Below, piece by piece: positions 6,001 through 15,000 of a stretch of DNA of 16,705 bases. This stretch comes from Myxococcota bacterium (lineage in GTDB: Bacteria; Myxococcota; JACRCW01). The stretch spans positions 1 to 16,705 of the forward strand of contig JBFMGU010000232.1 of the NCBI GenBank assembly GCA_040752415.1, written 5' to 3'. Every line of letters starts with the position of its first letter. Positions within the stretch are counted from its first letter, which is position 1. Position numbers: made by a program.

Positions 6001-9000
6001 GTCCACCCCGTTGTTGCCCACCCGCTCCAGCGTCAGCGTGTCGACAACGGCGGGCGGCGTGACGTCCTCGGTGTATGGCCCCGCGGAGCTGAGCTGGCTG
6101 GTGGGAATCACCGTGGCCACCGGGTTGCCCACGGTTGCCCAGGCGAGTCTCACGTCCGCCTGCTGGGTGTACTCCACGTACTCCAGGCGGATGCGCACGG
6201 GACGGTCCTCCTGGAAGGCAAACGGGGCCGTCCCGTCGTTGGTCGCATTGTGGGTCCACTGGTTGATGAGCAGCCGCCCGTCCACCCAGAGCCGTGCGCC
6301 GTTGTTGCTCTGCACATTCAGGGAATACACGCCGGTGGTGGGAGCCCACACGTGGCCCATCCAACGCACCGTGAAGTTGTCGGCGGGCACGCCCGTTGCG
6401 GGGACGGAGACGCCCCAGTCAAAATCGACGTCGGGGTCCACCCCCTGCAGCTGCAGTGAATCGAAGGAGGTCCCGGCGTAGTACCAGGCCGCCAGCCCGT
6501 CCCCCACCGGCAACCCCGACGACGAGCTGGACGACGAGCTGGACGACGACGAGCTGGACGACGACGTGCTGGATGACGACGAGCTGGACGATGACGACGC
6601 GCCGGAGGTCGACGAGCTCGAGGAGCTGGAGCCGGTGGACGCGCTGCTGCTGGTAGGAGACGAGCTGACCGCGGCCGAGCTGCTGGTGGTGGTACCGCTG
6701 CTGGTGGCGCTCGCGGAGGATGACGTCGCGGAGGTGCTGGTGCCGCTGGTGATCCCACCGGATGATGACGTGGCGTTGTTGGACGTGGACGAGCTGGTGC
6801 TGGTGGAGCCGACGGTGCTGGCAGCGGAGGAGGAACTGGCGGAGGTGGCGGAGCCGCTGTTTGGGGCGGAAGTGGTGGTGCCCACTCCCGACGAGGAGGA
6901 ATGGCTGGAACCGCCCAGGCTGCTGCTGTGCGCTGCGCCGCTGCTGGTCCCGCCCAGCACCGCCTCGCGACACCGGCCATCCGCACACGTCATGCCGCTG
7001 CCGCAGTCCGCGTCGGCGTTGCACAGGCGCACGCAGCGGTTGCCCTCCTGGACCTCGTTGTCGGCGCATTCCAGGCACGCGGTGGCACCCACCAGGGTCC
7101 ACGCCATCACGGCTGGCAGCGCCACTTTCCGGATCGTGTCCACGTCGAGAGCATAGCGCGCGCAGCGAACGGCGTCTCGGAGCAGTGGGAAAACGTCTCC
7201 GGGGGACGCGGCACGGTTCACCCGCCCCCCGGCCATGGCCTACACCTGCCGCGTGGGACGACGTCACGCCTGGGCCACCGCTGCGCTGGCCTTCCTCATC
7301 TACCTCGCCACCCTGCAGCCGTCGGTGGTGGGTGGCGACGCCGGGGAGCTGATGGACGCCGCGCTCACCGGCGGCGTTGCGCATCCTCCCGGCTATCCGC
7401 TCTACACGCTCCTGCTCCGCCTGTTTGCCGCCCTGCCCGGGTTGGACGTGGGCGTGCGGATGAACCTGCTCTCCGCGCTGCTTGGTGCACTCGCCTGCGG
7501 ATTGCTCGCGGAGGCGGTGACCACGGTGTCACGAGCGCCCTGGGCTGGCGTGTTGGCGGGCGGAATGTTCGCATTGAGCCACCGCGTGTGGCCCCATGCG
7601 ACGAGCGCGGAGGTGTTCGCGCTGAACAACATGCTCACGGCGGCGTTGCTTGCCCTTGCGGCGCGCTATGCGGAGCACGCCTCTTTCCGCACGGTGGCGT
7701 TGACGGCGTTCTGCGCGGGACTGGCGCTGGCGAATCATCACACCAGCATCTTTGTCGTCATTCCGGTCCTTGGCTGGATGGGCCGGGCCTTTCCGCGGGC
7801 CCTGCTGCTGCTGCCGTTGGGCCTCATTCCCTACGTGTACCTGCCCCTCGCTGCGCGCAGTGCCGCCGCGGTCACCTGGGGCGATCCGAGCACGCTCACG
7901 GGGCTCGTCGAGCACGTGCTGCGACGGGAATACGGCACCTTCCAGCTCGTCAGTGCGCCGCTCGGTGAGGCCGAGACGCTGCGCGCGTTGGGCTTCTTCC
8001 TCACCGACACGGTGCGCGGTGTTCTCGGGGTGGGCGTGGTGTTCGCGGTGCTCGCCATGCGCCAGCGTCGGACCTGGTGCCGCGTGGTGGCCGGCGCCCT
8101 GCTGATCGACGTGCTGGTGTTCCATTCCCTGGTGAACATGCCGCTGGAACCGGCACTGCTCCGGGGCGTGCAGGCGCGCTTCTACCAGCTTCCGCTGCTG
8201 CTGCTCCTGGCGTTGGCCGGCGTGGGCTTCGCCCGTCTTCGCCGGGGTTCGGCGCCGGTGGCGGTGGCTCTGGTCGTGATCCAGGGGGCGCTCAACCTGG
8301 GCGACGTGTTGCGTCACCGTGGGCGCGTCGTCGAGGAATACGGACGGAGCATCCTGCGTGCCGCGCCGCCCGACGCCATTGTGCTCACGCGTGGAGATCT
8401 CATCACCAACAGCGTTCGCTACCTGCAGGCGGCGGAAGGCCTCCGCGGTGACGTGCGCGTGGTGGACCAGGAGATCCTCAGCCGCACCTGGATGCGCTAC
8501 GCGGCCCAGTTCCCCGACGTCACCTTCCCCGGCACGCATTACCACCCGCGCGAACCGGGTGGGTTCACCATGGCGCAGTTCGTGGCTGCCAACCTGCCGC
8601 GCCATCCCATCGTGGTGTGCGGCGGGTTCAAGGAGGGGGACAGCTCCGTCCCCGGTCTGCTGCAGCAGTGGCCCCTGGGAATCTGCAAACGTCTCCATCC
8701 TCCCGACGTCAGCGTGGACTTCCACGCCTGGCTCGTCGAGAGCGAGCAGGCCCTGCCGCCCGTGCCATCCGGGCCGTTCTCCGACGAGAGCTGGGAGCAG
8801 GTGGTGCTCCAGGACGCGTTGGAGGCGCGTCACGCGCGCGGCTTCCTCGTGCTCACCCACCCGTCGCTGCCCGTCGACACCGCCACGCGCAACACCCTCG
8901 CGGTGCGATTGCTGGAGGAAGCGGCCCAGGATCCGCGCGCCGCCCCGCACGTGCACAAGAACCTTGGGATTGCCCTCAGCCGCCTGGGCACGCCCGAGGC

Positions 9001-12000: not shown

Positions 12001-15000
12001 CCAACCAGACACATACCGAGGTGGAGTGTTATCCGCCCGCGGGAGAGGGAACCGCGCCGGTCAGGGTCATCGCAGGCGGGCTTCCGTCCCTGCCCTTCCA
12101 GGCCAGCTACGCGGCGCCTCTCCTCGACGGGGTGAGCCCCGACCACGGTCCCACCTCCGGCACGGTGATCACGCTCCACGGCTCCAACTTCGGGCTCGCC
12201 CCGTCGGTCACCGTGGGCTCGTCGGAGTGCTCCATCCAGGACCGGACCCATGACACGGTCATCTGCAGCGTGCCCGTTGGCGCGGGAACGGGTCTGCCGG
12301 TGCGCCTCACCGTCGGCGGACAAACCAGCGGGACCGCGCTCTTCGACTACGACCCGCCCGCCATCACGGGTGTGACGCCGGTCAGCGTGCCCACGCGCGG
12401 CACCACGATCACCATCGTCGGCAGCAGCTTCGGCGCTTCGGCACCGTCGGTGCTCTACGGGGAATCCGCCTGCCCCGTCGTCAGCAGCGATCACAACCGC
12501 ATCCTGTGCAACGCTCCGGAGGGAACGGGAGCTCCCGAGCTCGTCGTCAGGGTAGCGTCGCAATCGACCACCTTCCTCCTGCCCTACACGCCTCCGTACC
12601 TGGAATCGCTGACGCCCACGGAAGTTCCAGCGGGGGGCAACATCCCGCTGACCATCAGCGGCACCAACTTCGGCCGCGGCTCCGCGCAGGTGACGGTGGG
12701 AGGTCAGCCTTGTCCCGTGCTCACCCTCGACCACGAGCGCATCACGTGCACGGTTCCCGCGGGCGCGGGCCCGGCCGGGGTGCAGGTCCGCGTGAGCAAC
12801 CAGGTGAGCAACACGCTGCCGTTGACGTATGACACGCCATACATCGAGGGCATCTCGCCCGCCGTGGTGCCAACGCGCGGCGCGGTGATCACGCTGACCG
12901 GTCGGAACTTCGGTGCTTCTGGATCGGTGACCGTCGACGGGGCCGCGTGCCCGGTGCTCACCTACGCCACCTCCCGCGTCACCTGCACGGCGCCGGAAGG
13001 CGTGGGACGCGACAACTCCGTCCTGCTCATCACCGCAACGCAGACGAGCAACACCGCGCTGCTGCAACGCGCCGCGCCCGTGGCGTTGTCGGTCTCACCG
13101 CAAGCCATCCCCGCCGCCGGCGGAATTCCGATCACGATCATGGGCCAGGACTTTGGCGCCGGCTCCGCCGTCGTCGACGTGAACGGCAGCACCTGCCCGG
13201 TGCAGTCCGTTGATCACGAGGAGATCACGTGCCTTGCGCCGCCACGCCCCGTGGATGCCGCGTTGCTGCGCGTGAGCGTCGCGCAACAGGGCAGCAATGC
13301 GATCAGCGTTCCCTACGCGTTGCCGCTGGTGGCGTCGGTGACGCCGGGGCAATTGAGCGAGCTCGGTGGCGCCATCCTCATCGAGGGCAGCGGTTTCGGT
13401 CCGGGTGTCGTTGTCATGGTGGACGGGGTGGCGTGCCCCATCATCTCCATGCGCGACAACGAGATCCTGTGCCGTGCCCCCGCAGCCAGCGGCGCTTCGG
13501 AGGTGACGGTGGCGCTTGGCGCAACGGTCAGCCCGCCGGTGAACTTGCCGCGCAGCGGCGCGTGTGGCGGGTCCCTGGCCGAAGGCGACCCCTGTGACGA
13601 CGGAAACGTTTGCACCGGCCTCGGCCACTGCGAAAACGGCGTCTGTCGCGGCGCGCCGCCGGAGCGTGAAGGCGAGGCCTGCGACAACGGCAGCTTCTGC
13701 GCCGGAGCCGGCGTGTGCCAGAGCGGCGCGTGTGTGGCTCCCGCCGAGCGCGACACGCTGGCCTGTGACGACGGAAACCGGTGCACGCTGGAAGACGTGT
13801 GCACCGCCGGAGAGTGCGTTGGCTCGTTGTCCGACTCCGTTCCCGGGTGTTGCGGCAGCGACGTCGAATGCGGGGCAGGCAGCCGATGCGAGAACGGTGC
13901 GTGCGTTGCGTTGGACCCGCTCGGCACCGCCTGCGCGGACGGCGCCACCTGCGCCAGCGGCGTCTGTGTCGACGGTGTCTGTTGTGAGTCGGACTGCACC
14001 GGCGTGTGTGAGCAGTGCAATCGTCCGGGGCAGGAAGGGTTCTGTGTGGCCGCGGCTCCTGGAGCGCCGGTGGGAACGCGTCCCTCCTGCCGCGGGAACG
14101 GCGTCTGCGCCGGCACGTGTGACGGGGTGCGGACCGGTTGTGTCTTCCCGGACTCGCAGGTGGTGTGCGCCGCGCCGGAGTGTCTCGGCGAGAGTGTGGT
14201 TGGCGAGGGAACGTGCAATGGCGGAGGAGACTGCGTGACGCCGTCGCCGGCTCCGTGCGCACCCTACGCGTGCGCGGCGGGTGGGACCTGCTTCACCGGC
14301 TGCGTCGACAACGGCCACTGTGCCAGCGGCTTTGTGTGCGTGGGGGGATTCTGCACGCGTCCCGCGGAGGACGCGGGAACGCCTGATGCTGGTGAGGACG
14401 CAGGACCGGCCGACGCGAGCGTGGCGTCCGATGCAGCGACCTCCGATGCCGCTTCCGGCAACGACGCCGGCACCACCAGCGACGACGCCGGCATCACGGA
14501 CGCTGGAGGAGCGGGCGACGCGGCGCCCGACCATGACGCTGCCGCGGAAACCCCCGATGCGGCCGCCGACGACGGCGGTGAGGGACGCGATGGTGCCGTG
14601 AGCCGCGATGCCAGCGTGGATGGCGACGCAGCCCAGCCGCAGCGGGATGCGGGCGCGCGGGATGCCAGCGACGCGCACGACGCCGCCGCCGGCGCTGGCA
14701 ACGACGGTGGTGACGACGACGATTCGGATTCGTCCGTCTGCGCGTGCGCGCGACCGGTGACGGGTGTGCCCTGGTTGGCGCTGACGCTCGTGGCGGCGGG
14801 CGCGCTGGTGAGGCGTCGCCGGCGCTAGCGTGGCTTAGCCTGGGATTAGACCGCAGGTTGGAAGGCGTCCGCGGTGCCGAGCAGTCGGCTGTCCTCACGT
14901 GCAGCGTCAGCGGACGTCGGTGTTGTTGGGCTGCTGGACGGGCGCGTGGTGCTTCAGGGGTCTGGGCACGTGCGCGCGCCTGCGGCAAGTCACTGGACGC

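What a model noticed while it worked through the whole genome (the two positions that open the first line are those of the whole stretch)
7235..14828. Full-length bacterial TMEM260-type O-mannosyltransferase gene next to a 16-IPT-domain, fibrocystin-L-like protein that c [...]
Gene g03559 encodes a 621-aa GT-C membrane protein that aligns over nearly its whole length with human TMEM260 (catalytic Asp52 conserved), and the next gene on the same strand, g03560, encodes a 1788-aa secreted protein of 16 IPT/TIG domains, six of which carry the motif P-x6-P-x6-GG-x3-T that fits the sequon recognised by animal TMEM260 on IPT domains. I read the pair as enzyme and client: a bacterial TMEM260 homologue that O-glycosylates the first beta-strands of IPT domains of a surface protein, as TMEM260 does on plexins, MET/RON and fibrocystins. 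New would be a function for the large bacterial DUF2723/TMEM260_N family and evidence that this domain-specific glycosylation is older than a [...]
Evidence so far: PDB sequence search: human TMEM260 (9rql) E 3.4e-80, query 13-610 of 621 to chain 30-683, the GGD-x-GEL stretch with human Asp52 aligned and conserved; D52A is the dead mutant in bioRxiv 10.64898/2026.09.21.753134 (passages, call 136). Swiss-Prot: g03559 30.6% to human TMEM260; g03560 best hit mouse fibrocystin-L 25.8%; Pfam TIG x16; genes co-directional, 361 bp apart. Sequon Px6Px3Px2GGx3T, tolerant at the prolines, Ser or Thr acceptor, fibrocystins as clients: same preprint. Domain starts listed in call 138; regex P.{6}P.{6}GG.{3}[TS] has 35 matches in 8830 proteins, 6 in g03560 (the top protein), 3 each in two other TIG proteins. 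10 genes carry TIG and 3 carry TMEM260-like domains, so cha [...]
(Added by a program. Inside this text positions count along the whole contig: contig position 1 is position 1 of the stretch shown here. "Call 12" and the like, gene names such as g00115 and contig names such as C1 are that model's own, and its searches are not shown. The text may have been shortened before it was handed on; [...] marks where a part breaks off. The agent that wrote the report below was given it as the finding of a first reader that could run no searches.)

Follow-up and report, generated by a model that had tools for sequence, protein, structure and literature searches.

The report
Bacterial TMEM260 enzyme beside IPT client
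A high-GC bacterium carries a full-length relative of the human sugar-adding enzyme TMEM260 next to a secreted protein built from the kind of domain that enzyme modifies in animals, and the same gene pair recurs in related bacteria, so the animal system probably has a bacterial counterpart.

Summary
Window 7235-9100 (+) encodes a 621-aa protein collinear with human TMEM260 (E 3.4e-80). All six residues whose mutation kills or cripples the human enzyme are kept, including the catalytic base. Window 9462-14828 (+) encodes a secreted protein with 16 IPT domains.

The gene pair is conserved. Among 26 same-phylum genomes with a full-length orthologue whose flanks I fetched, a multi-IPT gene lies directly beside it in 9. 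A tenth genome, whose orthologue is split over two contigs, shows the same. Together with the window that makes 7 genera, in three gene orders, and no other flanking gene is shared.

The linked IPT domains are the plexin/MET type, with a cysteine pair. They keep Thr at the position that aligns with MET Thr676, a proven TMEM260 site, in 92 of 100 domains. In genomes without the enzyme the figure is 37 of 75.

Against the reading:
- None of 32 metagenome loci with full-length orthologues has an IPT neighbour.
- One genus has lost the adjacency.
- The strict human sequon fits only 1 of 16 domains.
- The acceptor-binding TPR part is only partly conserved.
- Nothing is shown biochemically.

I rate enzyme-and-client at about 0.65. 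A function for the whole DUF2723 family is not supported.

The parts
7235..9100 (+). Gene for the 621-aa full-length TMEM260 (CAZy GT117) orthologue, P0001
   Evidence: ORF. PF11028 at E 1e-28. Human TMEM260 9rql at E 3.4e-80 over residues 13-610. AlphaFold2 model with pLDDT 94.1 and pTM 0.93. Foldseek's top matches are GT-C enzymes.
7235..8362 (+). Membrane GT-C part (residues 1-376), carrying the donor-binding residues D35 (7337-7339), H50 (7382-7384), R230 (7922-7924), Y233 (7931-7933) and R315 (8177-8179)
   Evidence: In the alignment these match human D52, H67, R264, Y267 and R355. Their roles come from preprint 10.64898/2026.03.17.711096 (Results read). D35, H50, R230 and R315 are invariant and Y233 is at least 90 % conserved in 40 orthologues.
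8363..9097 (+). Periplasmic lobe (residues 377-621): a Rossmann-like domain with R386-G387-D388 (8390-8398), where D388 matches the human catalytic base D441, followed by a helical TPR-like end
   Evidence: Alignment. D388 is invariant and G387 at least 90 % conserved. The model shows a beta/alpha part at 382-488 and helices at 496-620. In the TPR part, K641-N642 are kept as K575-N576, while N602, N638, N680 and R652 are not kept.
9101..9461 (.). Spacer of 361 bp between the two genes
   Evidence: Coordinates. No sigma-70-like promoter was found, and the single terminator-like site lies inside the next gene, so whether the genes are co-transcribed is open.
9462..14828 (+). Gene for the secreted 16-IPT protein (1788 aa from the ATG; P0002 is the 1795-aa reading from the GTG at 9441)
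   Evidence: The best solved relatives are plexin-A1 (E 7.9e-16) and MET (E 2.4e-12).
9462..9530 (+). Predicted Sec signal peptide (23 residues, ending ...VRA)
   Evidence: Read from the translation; this is an inference and no predictor was run.
9537..9635 (+). Somatomedin-B-like cysteine knot
   Evidence: PF01033 at E 1.3e-4 and 22.6 bits, just under the 23.1 cut-off. The same domain is over the cut-off in the IPT neighbours of L155 and L156.
9642..13526 (+). Array of 16 IPT/TIG domains. The candidate acceptor Thr codons start at 9696, 9975, 10218, 10467, 10710, 10956, 11202, 11448, 11697, 11934, 12171, 12411, 12651, 12891 and 13134; domain 16 has Leu instead.
   Evidence: Domain table. [ILV]T[ILV].G..[FL] is found in 15 of 16 domains and a Cys pair in 15 of 16. 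Thr670 (11448) aligns without a gap to MET Thr676, and the Cys pair aligns to those of MET and plexin-A1.
13527..14738 (+). Cys-rich repeats, then an Asp/Ala-rich low-complexity stretch
   Evidence: Translation. DUF7107 matches at E 2.7e-4, under its cut-off.
14739..14825 (+). C-terminal tail: Cys-x-Cys, a hydrophobic helix and RRRRR (MYXO-CTERM-like sorting signal; the name is recalled)
   Evidence: Translation. Similar tails occur in the neighbours of L141, L155 and L160. No NCBIfam match at E 0.01.

Best explanation
P0001 is an inner-membrane GT-C glycosyltransferase orthologous to animal TMEM260. It takes a hexose, most likely mannose, from a polyprenyl-phosphate-sugar with its membrane part (D35, H50, R230, Y233, R315). 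Its periplasmic Rossmann-like/TPR lobe holds an extended stretch of a protein that has just been exported. D388 then acts as the base to put the sugar on a Thr. Its client is the protein encoded next door: the Thr in the second beta-strand ('[ILV]-T-[ILV]-x-G') of up to 15 of the 16 plexin/MET-type IPT domains, modified while the chain emerges unfolded from the Sec channel. The protein then folds, forms its disulfides and is sorted to the cell surface by its C-terminal tail. What is shown: the homology, the conserved residues, the conserved gene pair, the co-occurrence and the conserved Thr. What is inferred: the activity, the donor sugar, the topology, the timing and the client relation.
For: (1) P0001 is collinear with human TMEM260 at E 3.4e-80. 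All six residues whose mutation abolishes or cripples the human enzyme (D52, H67, R264, Y267, R355, D441) are kept. Five are invariant and one is at least 90 % conserved in 40 orthologues. The model has pLDDT 94.1.
(2) The gene pair is conserved. 27 of 400 other same-phylum genomes have an orthologue at E<=1e-45, and I fetched flanks for 26 of them. In 9 (G252, G255, G349, G222, G196, G204, G330, G348, G320) an ORF with 5-10 TIG domains lies directly beside the orthologue. G286, whose orthologue is split over two contigs, shows the same. G017 has an orthologue fragment followed by a TIG gene.
(3) The gene order differs among them: divergent, IPT gene upstream, or IPT gene downstream. In an all-against-all comparison of 11 loci from 7 genera, only these two genes are shared across genera. 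With 5-7 TIG genes per genome, I estimate chance adjacency at about 0.2 % per genome.
(4) On the orthologue tree the linked genes sit in two separate, well-supported clades. The linked IPT proteins have two architectures: Somatomedin-B + IPT, and IPT + cadherin-like.
(5) The two families co-occur. Of the 15 of 400 genomes with a P0002-like protein (E<=1e-25), 13 are among the 27 with an orthologue, and G286 makes 14.
(6) Thr at the acceptor column is found in 92 of 100 linked domains, although these domains are only 38 % identical to each other. That ties it for third most conserved of 67 columns. In four genomes without the orthologue it is found in 37 of 75 domains. Pro at sequon position -19 is found in 92 of 100 linked domains against 47 % in those four genomes. 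The Thr excess holds both with and without the Cys pair: 78/86 and 14/14, against 2/7 and 35/68.
(7) Thr670 of domain 8 aligns with MET Thr676, a site with 100 % O-mannose occupancy (PMC10214176 passage; alignment).
Against: - None of 32 metagenome loci with full-length orthologues has a TIG neighbour. These loci include the closest sequence relatives of P0001 (43 % identity). Two home-made TIG profiles found nothing in any of the 79 loci, and Pfam found nothing in 169 neighbour ORFs.
- In 14 of the 26 fetched same-phylum genomes the flanks are readable and hold no TIG gene: 10 of genus g118 plus G120, G192, G219 and G118. Three more are unresolved because of contig ends.
- The strict human sequon fits 1 of 16 domains, and Thr at this column is the plain IPT consensus (49 % even without the enzyme).
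- The linked IPT domains are a separate subfamily. By divergence between linked and other domains the Thr column ranks only 12th of 67, behind the Cys pair and several Gly columns. The Thr could therefore be a subfamily trait.
- In the acceptor groove only 5 of 8 residues around the acceptor are identical (R439, G440, D441, E466, V352; not P443, I523 or F349). Of the TPR residues only K641 and N642 are kept; N602, N638, N680 and R652 are not.
- The genes here are 361 bp apart and there is no evidence of co-transcription.
- The genomes are related and the domains within one protein are paralogous, so the counts overstate independence.
- There are no biochemical data, and the donor sugar is unknown.
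Confidence: 0.65

Rival explanations
1. P0001 is an active TMEM260-type glycosyltransferase, but its acceptors are other exported proteins or a lipid or glycan. The IPT protein is linked to it for some other reason, for example as a surface partner or as part of a common envelope or adhesion programme.
For: Full-length orthologues in 32 metagenome loci have no IPT neighbour. Their recurrent neighbours are GT2 polyprenyl-phosphate-sugar-synthase-like genes (L032, L036, L041, L048, L049), plus GT1 and PMT_2 genes. More distant members sit beside SpaA-like repeat proteins (L068, L080, L097) or a PKD-like one (L039). The TPR acceptor-binding residues are only partly kept. Ten g118 genomes keep the enzyme unlinked from any IPT gene.
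Against: The only known acceptors of the family are IPT domains (abstracts and passages). The pair, and nothing else, is conserved in three gene orders. The acceptor Thr and Pro -19 are specifically enriched. The g118 genomes still encode Thr-rich IPT proteins elsewhere: 50 of 58 domains, although I picked those proteins by their likeness to P0002 or by top TIG score.
Confidence: 0.2
2. The adjacency is inherited synteny or chance and has no functional meaning. The Thr is simply a structural trait of the plexin-type IPT subfamily.
For: Most linked genomes belong to one family (f11), so the arrangement could descend from one ancestor. Many columns separate linked IPT domains from other IPT domains more strongly than the Thr column does.
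Against: The orthologues are only 34-44 % identical to P0001 and fall in two separated clades. The gene order has been rearranged at least twice while the two genes stayed neighbours, and no other flanking gene is shared across genera. I estimate chance adjacency at about 0.2 % per genome. The Thr sits between two buried hydrophobic residues of a strand, so it probably points outward (inference), yet it is as conserved as the structural Pro and Gly residues.
Confidence: 0.08
3. The pair is a recent import from a eukaryote, or contamination, and is not a bacterial system.
For: Three 'animal-like' parts lie together: TMEM260, plexin/MET-type IPT domains and a Somatomedin-B-like domain. Human TMEM260 scores 273 bits against P0001, as high as about the 118th best of the 1.84 billion representatives searched.
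Against: GC content is 0.66-0.72 across the whole contig, with no break at the pair. The flanking genes are bacterial: a histidine kinase, an MBL-fold protein and a cytochrome c. 980 representative proteins reach E<=1e-30, and sources name hits from Gemmatimonadota, Chloroflexota, Acidobacteria and Myxococcota. The IPT protein ends in a bacterial sorting tail.
Confidence: 0.03

Closest known systems
Human TMEM260 (CAZy GT117) with its IPT-domain clients plexins, MET, RON and fibrocystins
   Same: The domain order is the same over the full length: GT-C membrane part, Rossmann-like domain, TPR. All six functionally tested donor-binding and catalytic residues are kept. The neighbouring protein consists of IPT domains of the same subtype, with the Cys pair and a Thr at the position of MET Thr676.
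   Different: The system is bacterial, so the inner membrane and periplasm replace the ER and a polyprenyl carrier would replace dolichyl. Enzyme and client are encoded side by side. The strict sequon fits only 1 of 16 domains. The TPR Asn ladder is mostly not kept. Activity is untested.
Actinobacterial protein O-mannosyltransferase (PMT, GT39), which acts on Sec-exported proteins (recalled, not looked up here)
   Same: It is a bacterial GT-C that O-mannosylates exported proteins from a polyprenyl-phosphate-mannose donor during translocation. This is the mechanism I propose here.
   Different: It belongs to a different family: PMT_2 matches P0001 only at 17.1 bits against a cut-off of 26.1. 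PMTs act on disordered Ser/Thr-rich stretches rather than on one position of a folded-domain type, and they have no Rossmann-like/TPR lobe.
TMTC1-4 (GT105), acting on cadherin EC domains
   Same: This is domain-specific O-mannosylation of Ig-like folds by a GT-C enzyme with TPR repeats (PMC11292533 passages).
   Different: It is a different family with a different client domain, and no sequence match was found here.
The wider bacterial DUF2723 / PF11028 family, including the two paralogues in this genome (C212, C157)
   Same: They share the N-terminal GT-C module.
   Different: The paralogues align with P0001 only over residues 10-421 and 22-389, so the lobe carrying the catalytic base D388 is not shared. 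No TIG match lies on their contigs.

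Membership tests
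TMEM260 / GT117 orthologue group | N-terminal GT-C module (PF11028) with the sugar-recognition-motif residues Asp and His (human D52, H67) | tested here: met
   PF11028 at E 1e-28. D35 and H50 align with them and are invariant in 40 orthologues.
TMEM260 / GT117 orthologue group | Donor-loading loop Arg and Tyr (R264, Y267) and the TMH10 Arg (R355) | tested here: met
   R230, Y233 and R315 align with them. R230 and R315 are invariant and Y233 is at least 90 % conserved.
TMEM260 / GT117 orthologue group | Luminal Rossmann-like domain carrying the catalytic base in an R-G-D motif (D441) | tested here: met
   R386-G387-D388 align with it. D388 is invariant. The model shows a beta/alpha domain at 382-488.
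TMEM260 / GT117 orthologue group | C-terminal TPR 'fingers' with an Asn ladder (N602, N638, N642, N680) that recruit the acceptor | tested here: inconclusive
   The helical end is present and K641-N642 are kept. The other three Asn residues and R652 are replaced. The preprint itself says this part is the least conserved across species.
TMEM260 / GT117 orthologue group | Whole-length collinearity with the solved enzyme and the same fold | tested here: met
   The sequences are collinear (13-610 against 30-683). The model's fold matches GT-C enzymes. A direct fold comparison with 9rql was not possible because the fold library ends on 2026-04-08 and lacks that entry.
TMEM260 / GT117 orthologue group | Transfers mannose from a polyprenyl/dolichyl-phosphate-mannose donor to Thr/Ser of IPT domains | not testable with these tools
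   Only indirect evidence exists: the conserved gene pair, the co-occurrence and the conserved Thr. GT2 genes resembling polyprenyl-phosphate-sugar synthases exist in the genome, all under the NCBIfam cut-offs.
TMEM260 client (IPT domain with sequon) | IPT/TIG domains on a protein that enters the secretory pathway | tested here: met
   16 TIG domains. An N-terminal signal-like peptide is read from the translation.
TMEM260 client (IPT domain with sequon) | Sequon Px6Px3Px2GGx3T/S spanning strands A-B | tested here: inconclusive
   The exact sequon is found in 1 of 16 domains, the form relaxed at the middle Pro in 6 of 16, and Thr at the equivalent strand position in 15 of 16. The fibrocystin preprint reports tolerance to such variation.
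TMEM260 client (IPT domain with sequon) | Acceptor Thr homologous to a mapped O-mannose site | tested here: met
   Thr670 aligns without a gap to MET Thr676 (the site comes from a PMC10214176 passage). This assumes that chain 7mo7_E carries the native numbering.
PMT (GT39) protein O-mannosyltransferases | A match to PMT/PMT_2 over the curated cut-off | tested here: not met
   PMT_2 scores 17.1 bits against a cut-off of 26.1.
MYXO-CTERM sorted surface proteins (name recalled) | A match to the curated C-terminal sorting-domain model | tested here: not met
   No such NCBIfam match for P0002 at E 0.01. The tail only looks like one by eye.

The most novel reading that the evidence does not exclude
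Domain-specific O-mannosylation of IPT domains by TMEM260 is not an animal invention. It exists in bacteria as a portable two-gene module: the enzyme plus a plexin/MET-type IPT surface protein. The animal enzyme and its client domain type would then share that origin. Relatives of the enzyme that sit beside SpaA-like or PKD-like repeat proteins would be a wider, undescribed class of glycosyltransferases, each dedicated to one kind of beta-sandwich repeat of bacterial surface proteins.
Probability: 0.4. Interest if true: 0.85.

Novelty: new variant of a known kind. Interest (0 to 1): 0.72.

Why it matters
TMEM260 was recognised as an enzyme only in 2023, its structure appeared as a preprint in 2026, and its loss causes a severe human heart and kidney syndrome. 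If the reading is right, three things follow.
- A bacterial orthologue encoded beside its own client would be a simple system for studying how one enzyme picks a single strand of one domain type. It could be handled genetically and would not be essential.
- It would assign a first function to a defined subgroup of the DUF2723 proteins.
- It would add a new kind of protein O-glycosylation to bacteria.

It would also bear on where the plexin/MET-type IPT domain and its glycosylation came from.

In the searched library I found no paper on the function of bacterial homologues. One search (TMEM260 + bacteria) found 27 papers, of which 20 were listed; the only relevant remark is 'distant homologs in bacteria' in PMC10214176. 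One search (DUF2723) found only that same paper. Searches listed nothing relevant. The structure preprint does not contain the word 'bacteria'. Fig. S8 and Table S1 of the structure preprint may show conservation across species and could bear on this point.

Tried and rejected
- Complex prediction of P0001 with a 40-residue strand A-B peptide of IPT domain 15, both given as alignments: no answer (score 0.01, mark 0.32).
- Fold search of the model against the PDB. The library ends in April 2026 and does not hold 9rql, so it shows only a generic GT-C fold.
- The genome-contig scan with the single protein found only 3 distant relatives. Their three small genomes have no TIG match. These are not orthologues, so this says little.
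- Placing eukaryotic TMEM260 in the tree. Two AT-rich, Cys-rich hits that I tested against the PDB are no closer to the human protein than P0001 is (E 5e-70 and 8e-75). The question stays open.
- Promoter and terminator scan of 6900-9600: nothing useful.
- Sequencing runs: no RNA holder is listed, and there is one DNA run with a small share of the words. I did not lay reads.
- A search centred on another phylum was not possible from a locus id.
- Equal longest-contig lengths suggest that two more metagenome contigs carry both genes: P0103 with P0127 (29870 bases) and P0072 with P0195 (15295 bases). I could not fetch them, so this is only a lead.
- I considered the Thr column as the main discriminator of linked IPT domains and rejected that. 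It ranks 12th of 67 by divergence, so I use it only together with the other evidence.

Full report
WHAT IS THERE. The window is a whole 16.7-kb contig of an 11-Mb, 520-contig genome. GC content is even at 0.66-0.72. ORF 7235-9100 (+) gives a 621-aa protein, P0001. Pfam finds PF11028 (TMEM260-like, E 1e-28) in the first protein and 16 TIG domains (E 2.2e-189) in the second.

THE ENZYME. P0001 aligns with the solved human TMEM260 (9rql) over residues 13-610 of 621, at E 3.4e-80.
- I read the Results of the structure preprint 10.64898/2026.03.17.711096 (parts 1 and 2 of 3). It names the residues that bind the mannose and phosphate of the donor (D52, H67, R264, Y267, R355) and the catalytic base (D441, in the luminal Rossmann-like domain). 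D52A, H67A, R264A, Y267A and D441A are dead, and R355A keeps about 20 % activity.
- In the alignment these are D35, H50, R230, Y233, R315 and D388. In an alignment of 40 full-length bacterial relatives, five are invariant and Y233 is at least 90 % conserved.
- Around the acceptor, R439, G440, E466 and V352 are also kept, but P443, I523 and F349 are not.
- In the TPR 'fingers' only K641-N642 are kept. N602, N638, N680 and R652 are replaced.
- An AlphaFold2 model built on the 40-sequence alignment is confident (pLDDT 94.1, pTM 0.93). It has a helical membrane part, a beta/alpha domain and a helical end. Foldseek finds GT-C enzymes (ALG12, ArnT, ALG9, PglB, Pmt4). That library does not yet hold 9rql.
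- PMT_2 matches only under its cut-off.

I conclude that P0001 is a true full-length orthologue of TMEM260, with an intact donor site and an intact catalytic base.

HOW BIG IS THE GROUP. Against 1.84 billion representatives, 15089 proteins match at E<=1e-3, 7970 at 1e-10 and 980 at 1e-30. Nearly all of the best 150 are full length.
- In the 5.8-billion-protein collection, the 120 listed hits are 36-46 % identical over at least 85 % of the query. The few that carry source names come from Gemmatimonadota, Chloroflexota, Acidobacteria and Myxococcota.
- The two paralogues in this genome align only over the membrane part.
- The full-length group is therefore a small, distinct part of DUF2723.
- The human protein scores 273 bits against P0001. 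That would put it at about rank 118, so the animal enzymes are not far outside the bacterial radiation. I could not place them in a tree.

THE NEIGHBOUR. The second protein has these parts, in order:
- a signal-like N-terminus;
- a Somatomedin-B-like cysteine knot (22.6 bits, cut-off 23.1);
- 16 IPT domains;
- Cys-rich repeats;
- an Asp/Ala-rich stretch;
- a Cys-x-Cys, hydrophobic, RRRRR tail.

Fifteen of the 16 IPT domains have a Cys pair, and 15 of 16 have Thr in '[ILV]-T-[ILV]-x-G'; domain 16 has Leu there. The best solved relatives are plexin-A1 and MET. Domain 8 aligns without a gap so that its Thr670 falls on MET residue 676, and the Cys pair aligns with the pairs of MET and plexin-A1. 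Thr676 is an O-mannose site with 100 % occupancy that depends on TMEM260 (PMC10214176, passages).

IS THE PAIR MORE THAN CHANCE? This is the main new result.
- In 400 other genomes of the same phylum, 27 have an orthologue at E<=1e-45; 23 of those are in one family, and one (G195) is unpublished. The phylum is probably Myxococcota, judging from the names given to homologues and from the C-terminal tail.
- I fetched up to about 10 kb on each side for 26 of the 27. I scanned the six-frame ORFs with a TIG profile built from the 16 domains and checked the hits with Pfam.
- In 9 genomes an ORF with 5-10 TIG domains lies directly beside the orthologue: G252, G255, G349 and G222 (one genus); G196; G204; G330 and G348 (one genus); and G320.
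- G286, whose orthologue is split over two contigs, has its N-terminal half divergent from and adjacent to a 9-IPT gene.
- G017 has a C-terminal fragment of an orthologue followed by a TIG gene.
- In G212 the orthologue and an 8-IPT gene each start a few hundred bases from the start of a different contig. That fits a divergent pair cut by an assembly gap.
- With the window this makes 7 genera, or 8 counting the G017 fragment.
- The arrangement differs: divergent with a short spacer (six loci plus G286), IPT gene first on the same strand (G330, G348, G320), and enzyme first (the window and G017).
- In an all-against-all comparison of the ORFs of 11 such loci, only the orthologue and the IPT protein are shared across genera.
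- These genomes have 5-7 TIG-bearing ORFs each. My estimate of the chance that a given gene has one as an immediate neighbour is about 0.2 %.
- On a tree of the orthologues the linked genes form two separate, well-supported clades. In one, 5 of 6 members are linked and the sixth is G212. The other holds the window, G286, the g115 genus (4 linked, 1 contig too short) and 10 unlinked g118 genomes.
- The linked IPT proteins come in two architectures: Somatomedin-B + IPT with a sorting tail, and IPT + cadherin-like/Big_9.

CO-OCCURRENCE. I searched the same 400 genomes with the first 513 residues of the IPT protein. Fifteen genomes match at E<=1e-25. Thirteen of them are among the 27 with an orthologue, and G286 makes 14; only G061 lacks one. 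Only three candidates per genome were scored, so these are lower bounds. The nearest relative of the window's genome (G001, same family, 92 % complete) has no orthologue at that threshold. Its four IPT proteins have Thr at the acceptor column in only 6 of 27 domains.

THE ACCEPTOR POSITION. I aligned all IPT domains that I could collect to one profile.

| Set of IPT domains | Thr at the acceptor column |
|---|---|
| Proteins adjacent to an orthologue | 92 of 100 |
| Unlinked P0002-like proteins in genomes that have the orthologue (picked by likeness or by top TIG score, so biased) | 58 of 66 |
| Other IPT proteins of the window's own genome | 31 of 66 |
| Four genomes without the orthologue | 37 of 75 |

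- Among the linked domains, which are on average 38 % identical, the Thr ties for third most conserved of 67 columns, level with the structural Pro and Gly residues and ahead of the Cys pair.
- Pro at sequon position -19 behaves the same way: 92 % against 47 %.
- The Thr excess holds in domains with the Cys pair (78/86 against 2/7) and without it (14/14 against 35/68).
- Two cautions apply. By divergence between linked and other domains the Thr column ranks only 12th of 67, so the linked domains are a subfamily of their own. And the domains and genomes are related to each other, so the Fisher p of 2e-10 overstates the case.

WHAT SPEAKS AGAINST.
- The metagenome scan returned 79 loci, of which 32 hold a full-length orthologue, with about 270 kb of flanks in all. 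Neither TIG profile finds a TIG domain in any of the 79. Pfam finds none in 169 neighbour ORFs of the 32 (125 ORFs, 44). These loci include the closest sequence relatives of P0001.
- Their recurrent neighbours are GT2 genes that resemble polyprenyl-phosphate-sugar synthases, all under the NCBIfam cut-offs, together with other glycosyltransferases. That fits donor supply and says nothing about the client.
- Fourteen same-phylum genomes have readable flanks without a TIG gene.
- The strict sequon fits one domain only.
- The distal acceptor-binding residues are mostly not kept.
- There is no evidence that the two genes of the window are co-transcribed.

MECHANISM, AND HOW SURE. I take it as near certain (about 0.9) that P0001 is an active TMEM260-type transferase that uses a polyprenyl-phosphate-hexose. 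All mannose-contacting residues are kept, so mannose is the best guess, but it is not shown. Two points make a periplasmic, co-translocational modification of the IPT Thr residues a coherent reading. The human enzyme acts on extended, unfolded strand A-B peptides. The neighbour is exported through a signal peptide and must fold and form disulfides outside the cytoplasm. With the conserved pair, the co-occurrence and the conserved Thr, I put the enzyme-client relation at about 0.65. The main rival, at about 0.2, is that the enzyme has other or broader acceptors and the linkage has a different basis.

COMPARISON AND NOVELTY. The closest known system is animal TMEM260 (GT117; family number from a PMC11292533 passage) with plexins, MET, RON and fibrocystins (abstracts and passages). 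What is the same: the architecture, the catalytic residues, the client domain subtype and the acceptor position. What differs: the compartment, the carrier lipid, the side-by-side encoding, a looser sequon and a diverged TPR. I found no description of a bacterial member's function. The preprints' supplements were closed. I file the finding as a new variant of a known kind.

Noticed in passing
window 5299-7236 (-): A 645-aa protein with two PA14 domains and a weak GLEYA match (carbohydrate-binding type) is encoded divergently. Its ATG overlaps the ATG of P0001 by two bases. No PA14 gene was seen beside the pair in the other loci.
   Followed up: partly
L068:2786-9202, L080:2-2776, L097:3-1847; L039:2859-5099: In a distant clade of full-length relatives, the upstream neighbour is a protein of SpaA/prealbumin-like repeats (4-7 copies). 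In L039 the downstream neighbour is a secreted PKD-like repeat protein. Other branches of the family may therefore serve other beta-sandwich repeats.
   Followed up: partly
L155:11986-14349 (-): A GH38 alpha-mannosidase gene lies about 1.1 kb downstream of the orthologue in one linked locus (G330). This is a single case, but it fits mannose as the sugar.
   Followed up: no
L032:929-1636, L036:106-843, L041:4550-6262, L048:5880-7556, L049:11941-14175: GT2 genes lie beside full-length orthologues in 5 of 24 metagenome loci scanned. The two small ones (L032, L036), the only ones I scanned against NCBIfam, resemble polyprenyl-phosphate-sugar synthases (AglJ, PpgS, ArnC-like), all under the cut-offs. 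Close homologues exist in the window's own genome at C508:2175-3041 and C179:36126-36923.
   Followed up: partly
window 9537-9635; L155:6522-9014; L156:10805-13720: There is a Somatomedin-B-like cysteine knot at the N-terminus of the IPT proteins. It is over the Pfam cut-off in two neighbours and just under it in the window. As far as I recall, this domain is otherwise known mostly from animals.
   Followed up: partly
G000:C492:8647-39426 (+); also G330:C23, G012:C112, G048:C55: Giant open frames of about 9,700-10,300 aa carry scattered TIG domains, in this genome and in three relatives.
   Followed up: no
L032:1742-3832 and L032:4268-6307: Two full-length orthologues lie in tandem on one metagenome contig.
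   Followed up: no
P0127 also carries a Somatomedin_B domain.
   Followed up: no
protein hit P0221: One eukaryotic protein (named by its source as from Plasmodiophora brassicae) is among the multi-IPT relatives of the client, at 32 % identity over 87 % of the query.
   Followed up: no
window 440-2233, 1624-3456, 4144-5217: The upstream genes are a cytochrome c-like protein, an MBL-fold protein and a DUF4118 histidine kinase. They are ordinary bacterial genes with no visible link to the pair.
   Followed up: no
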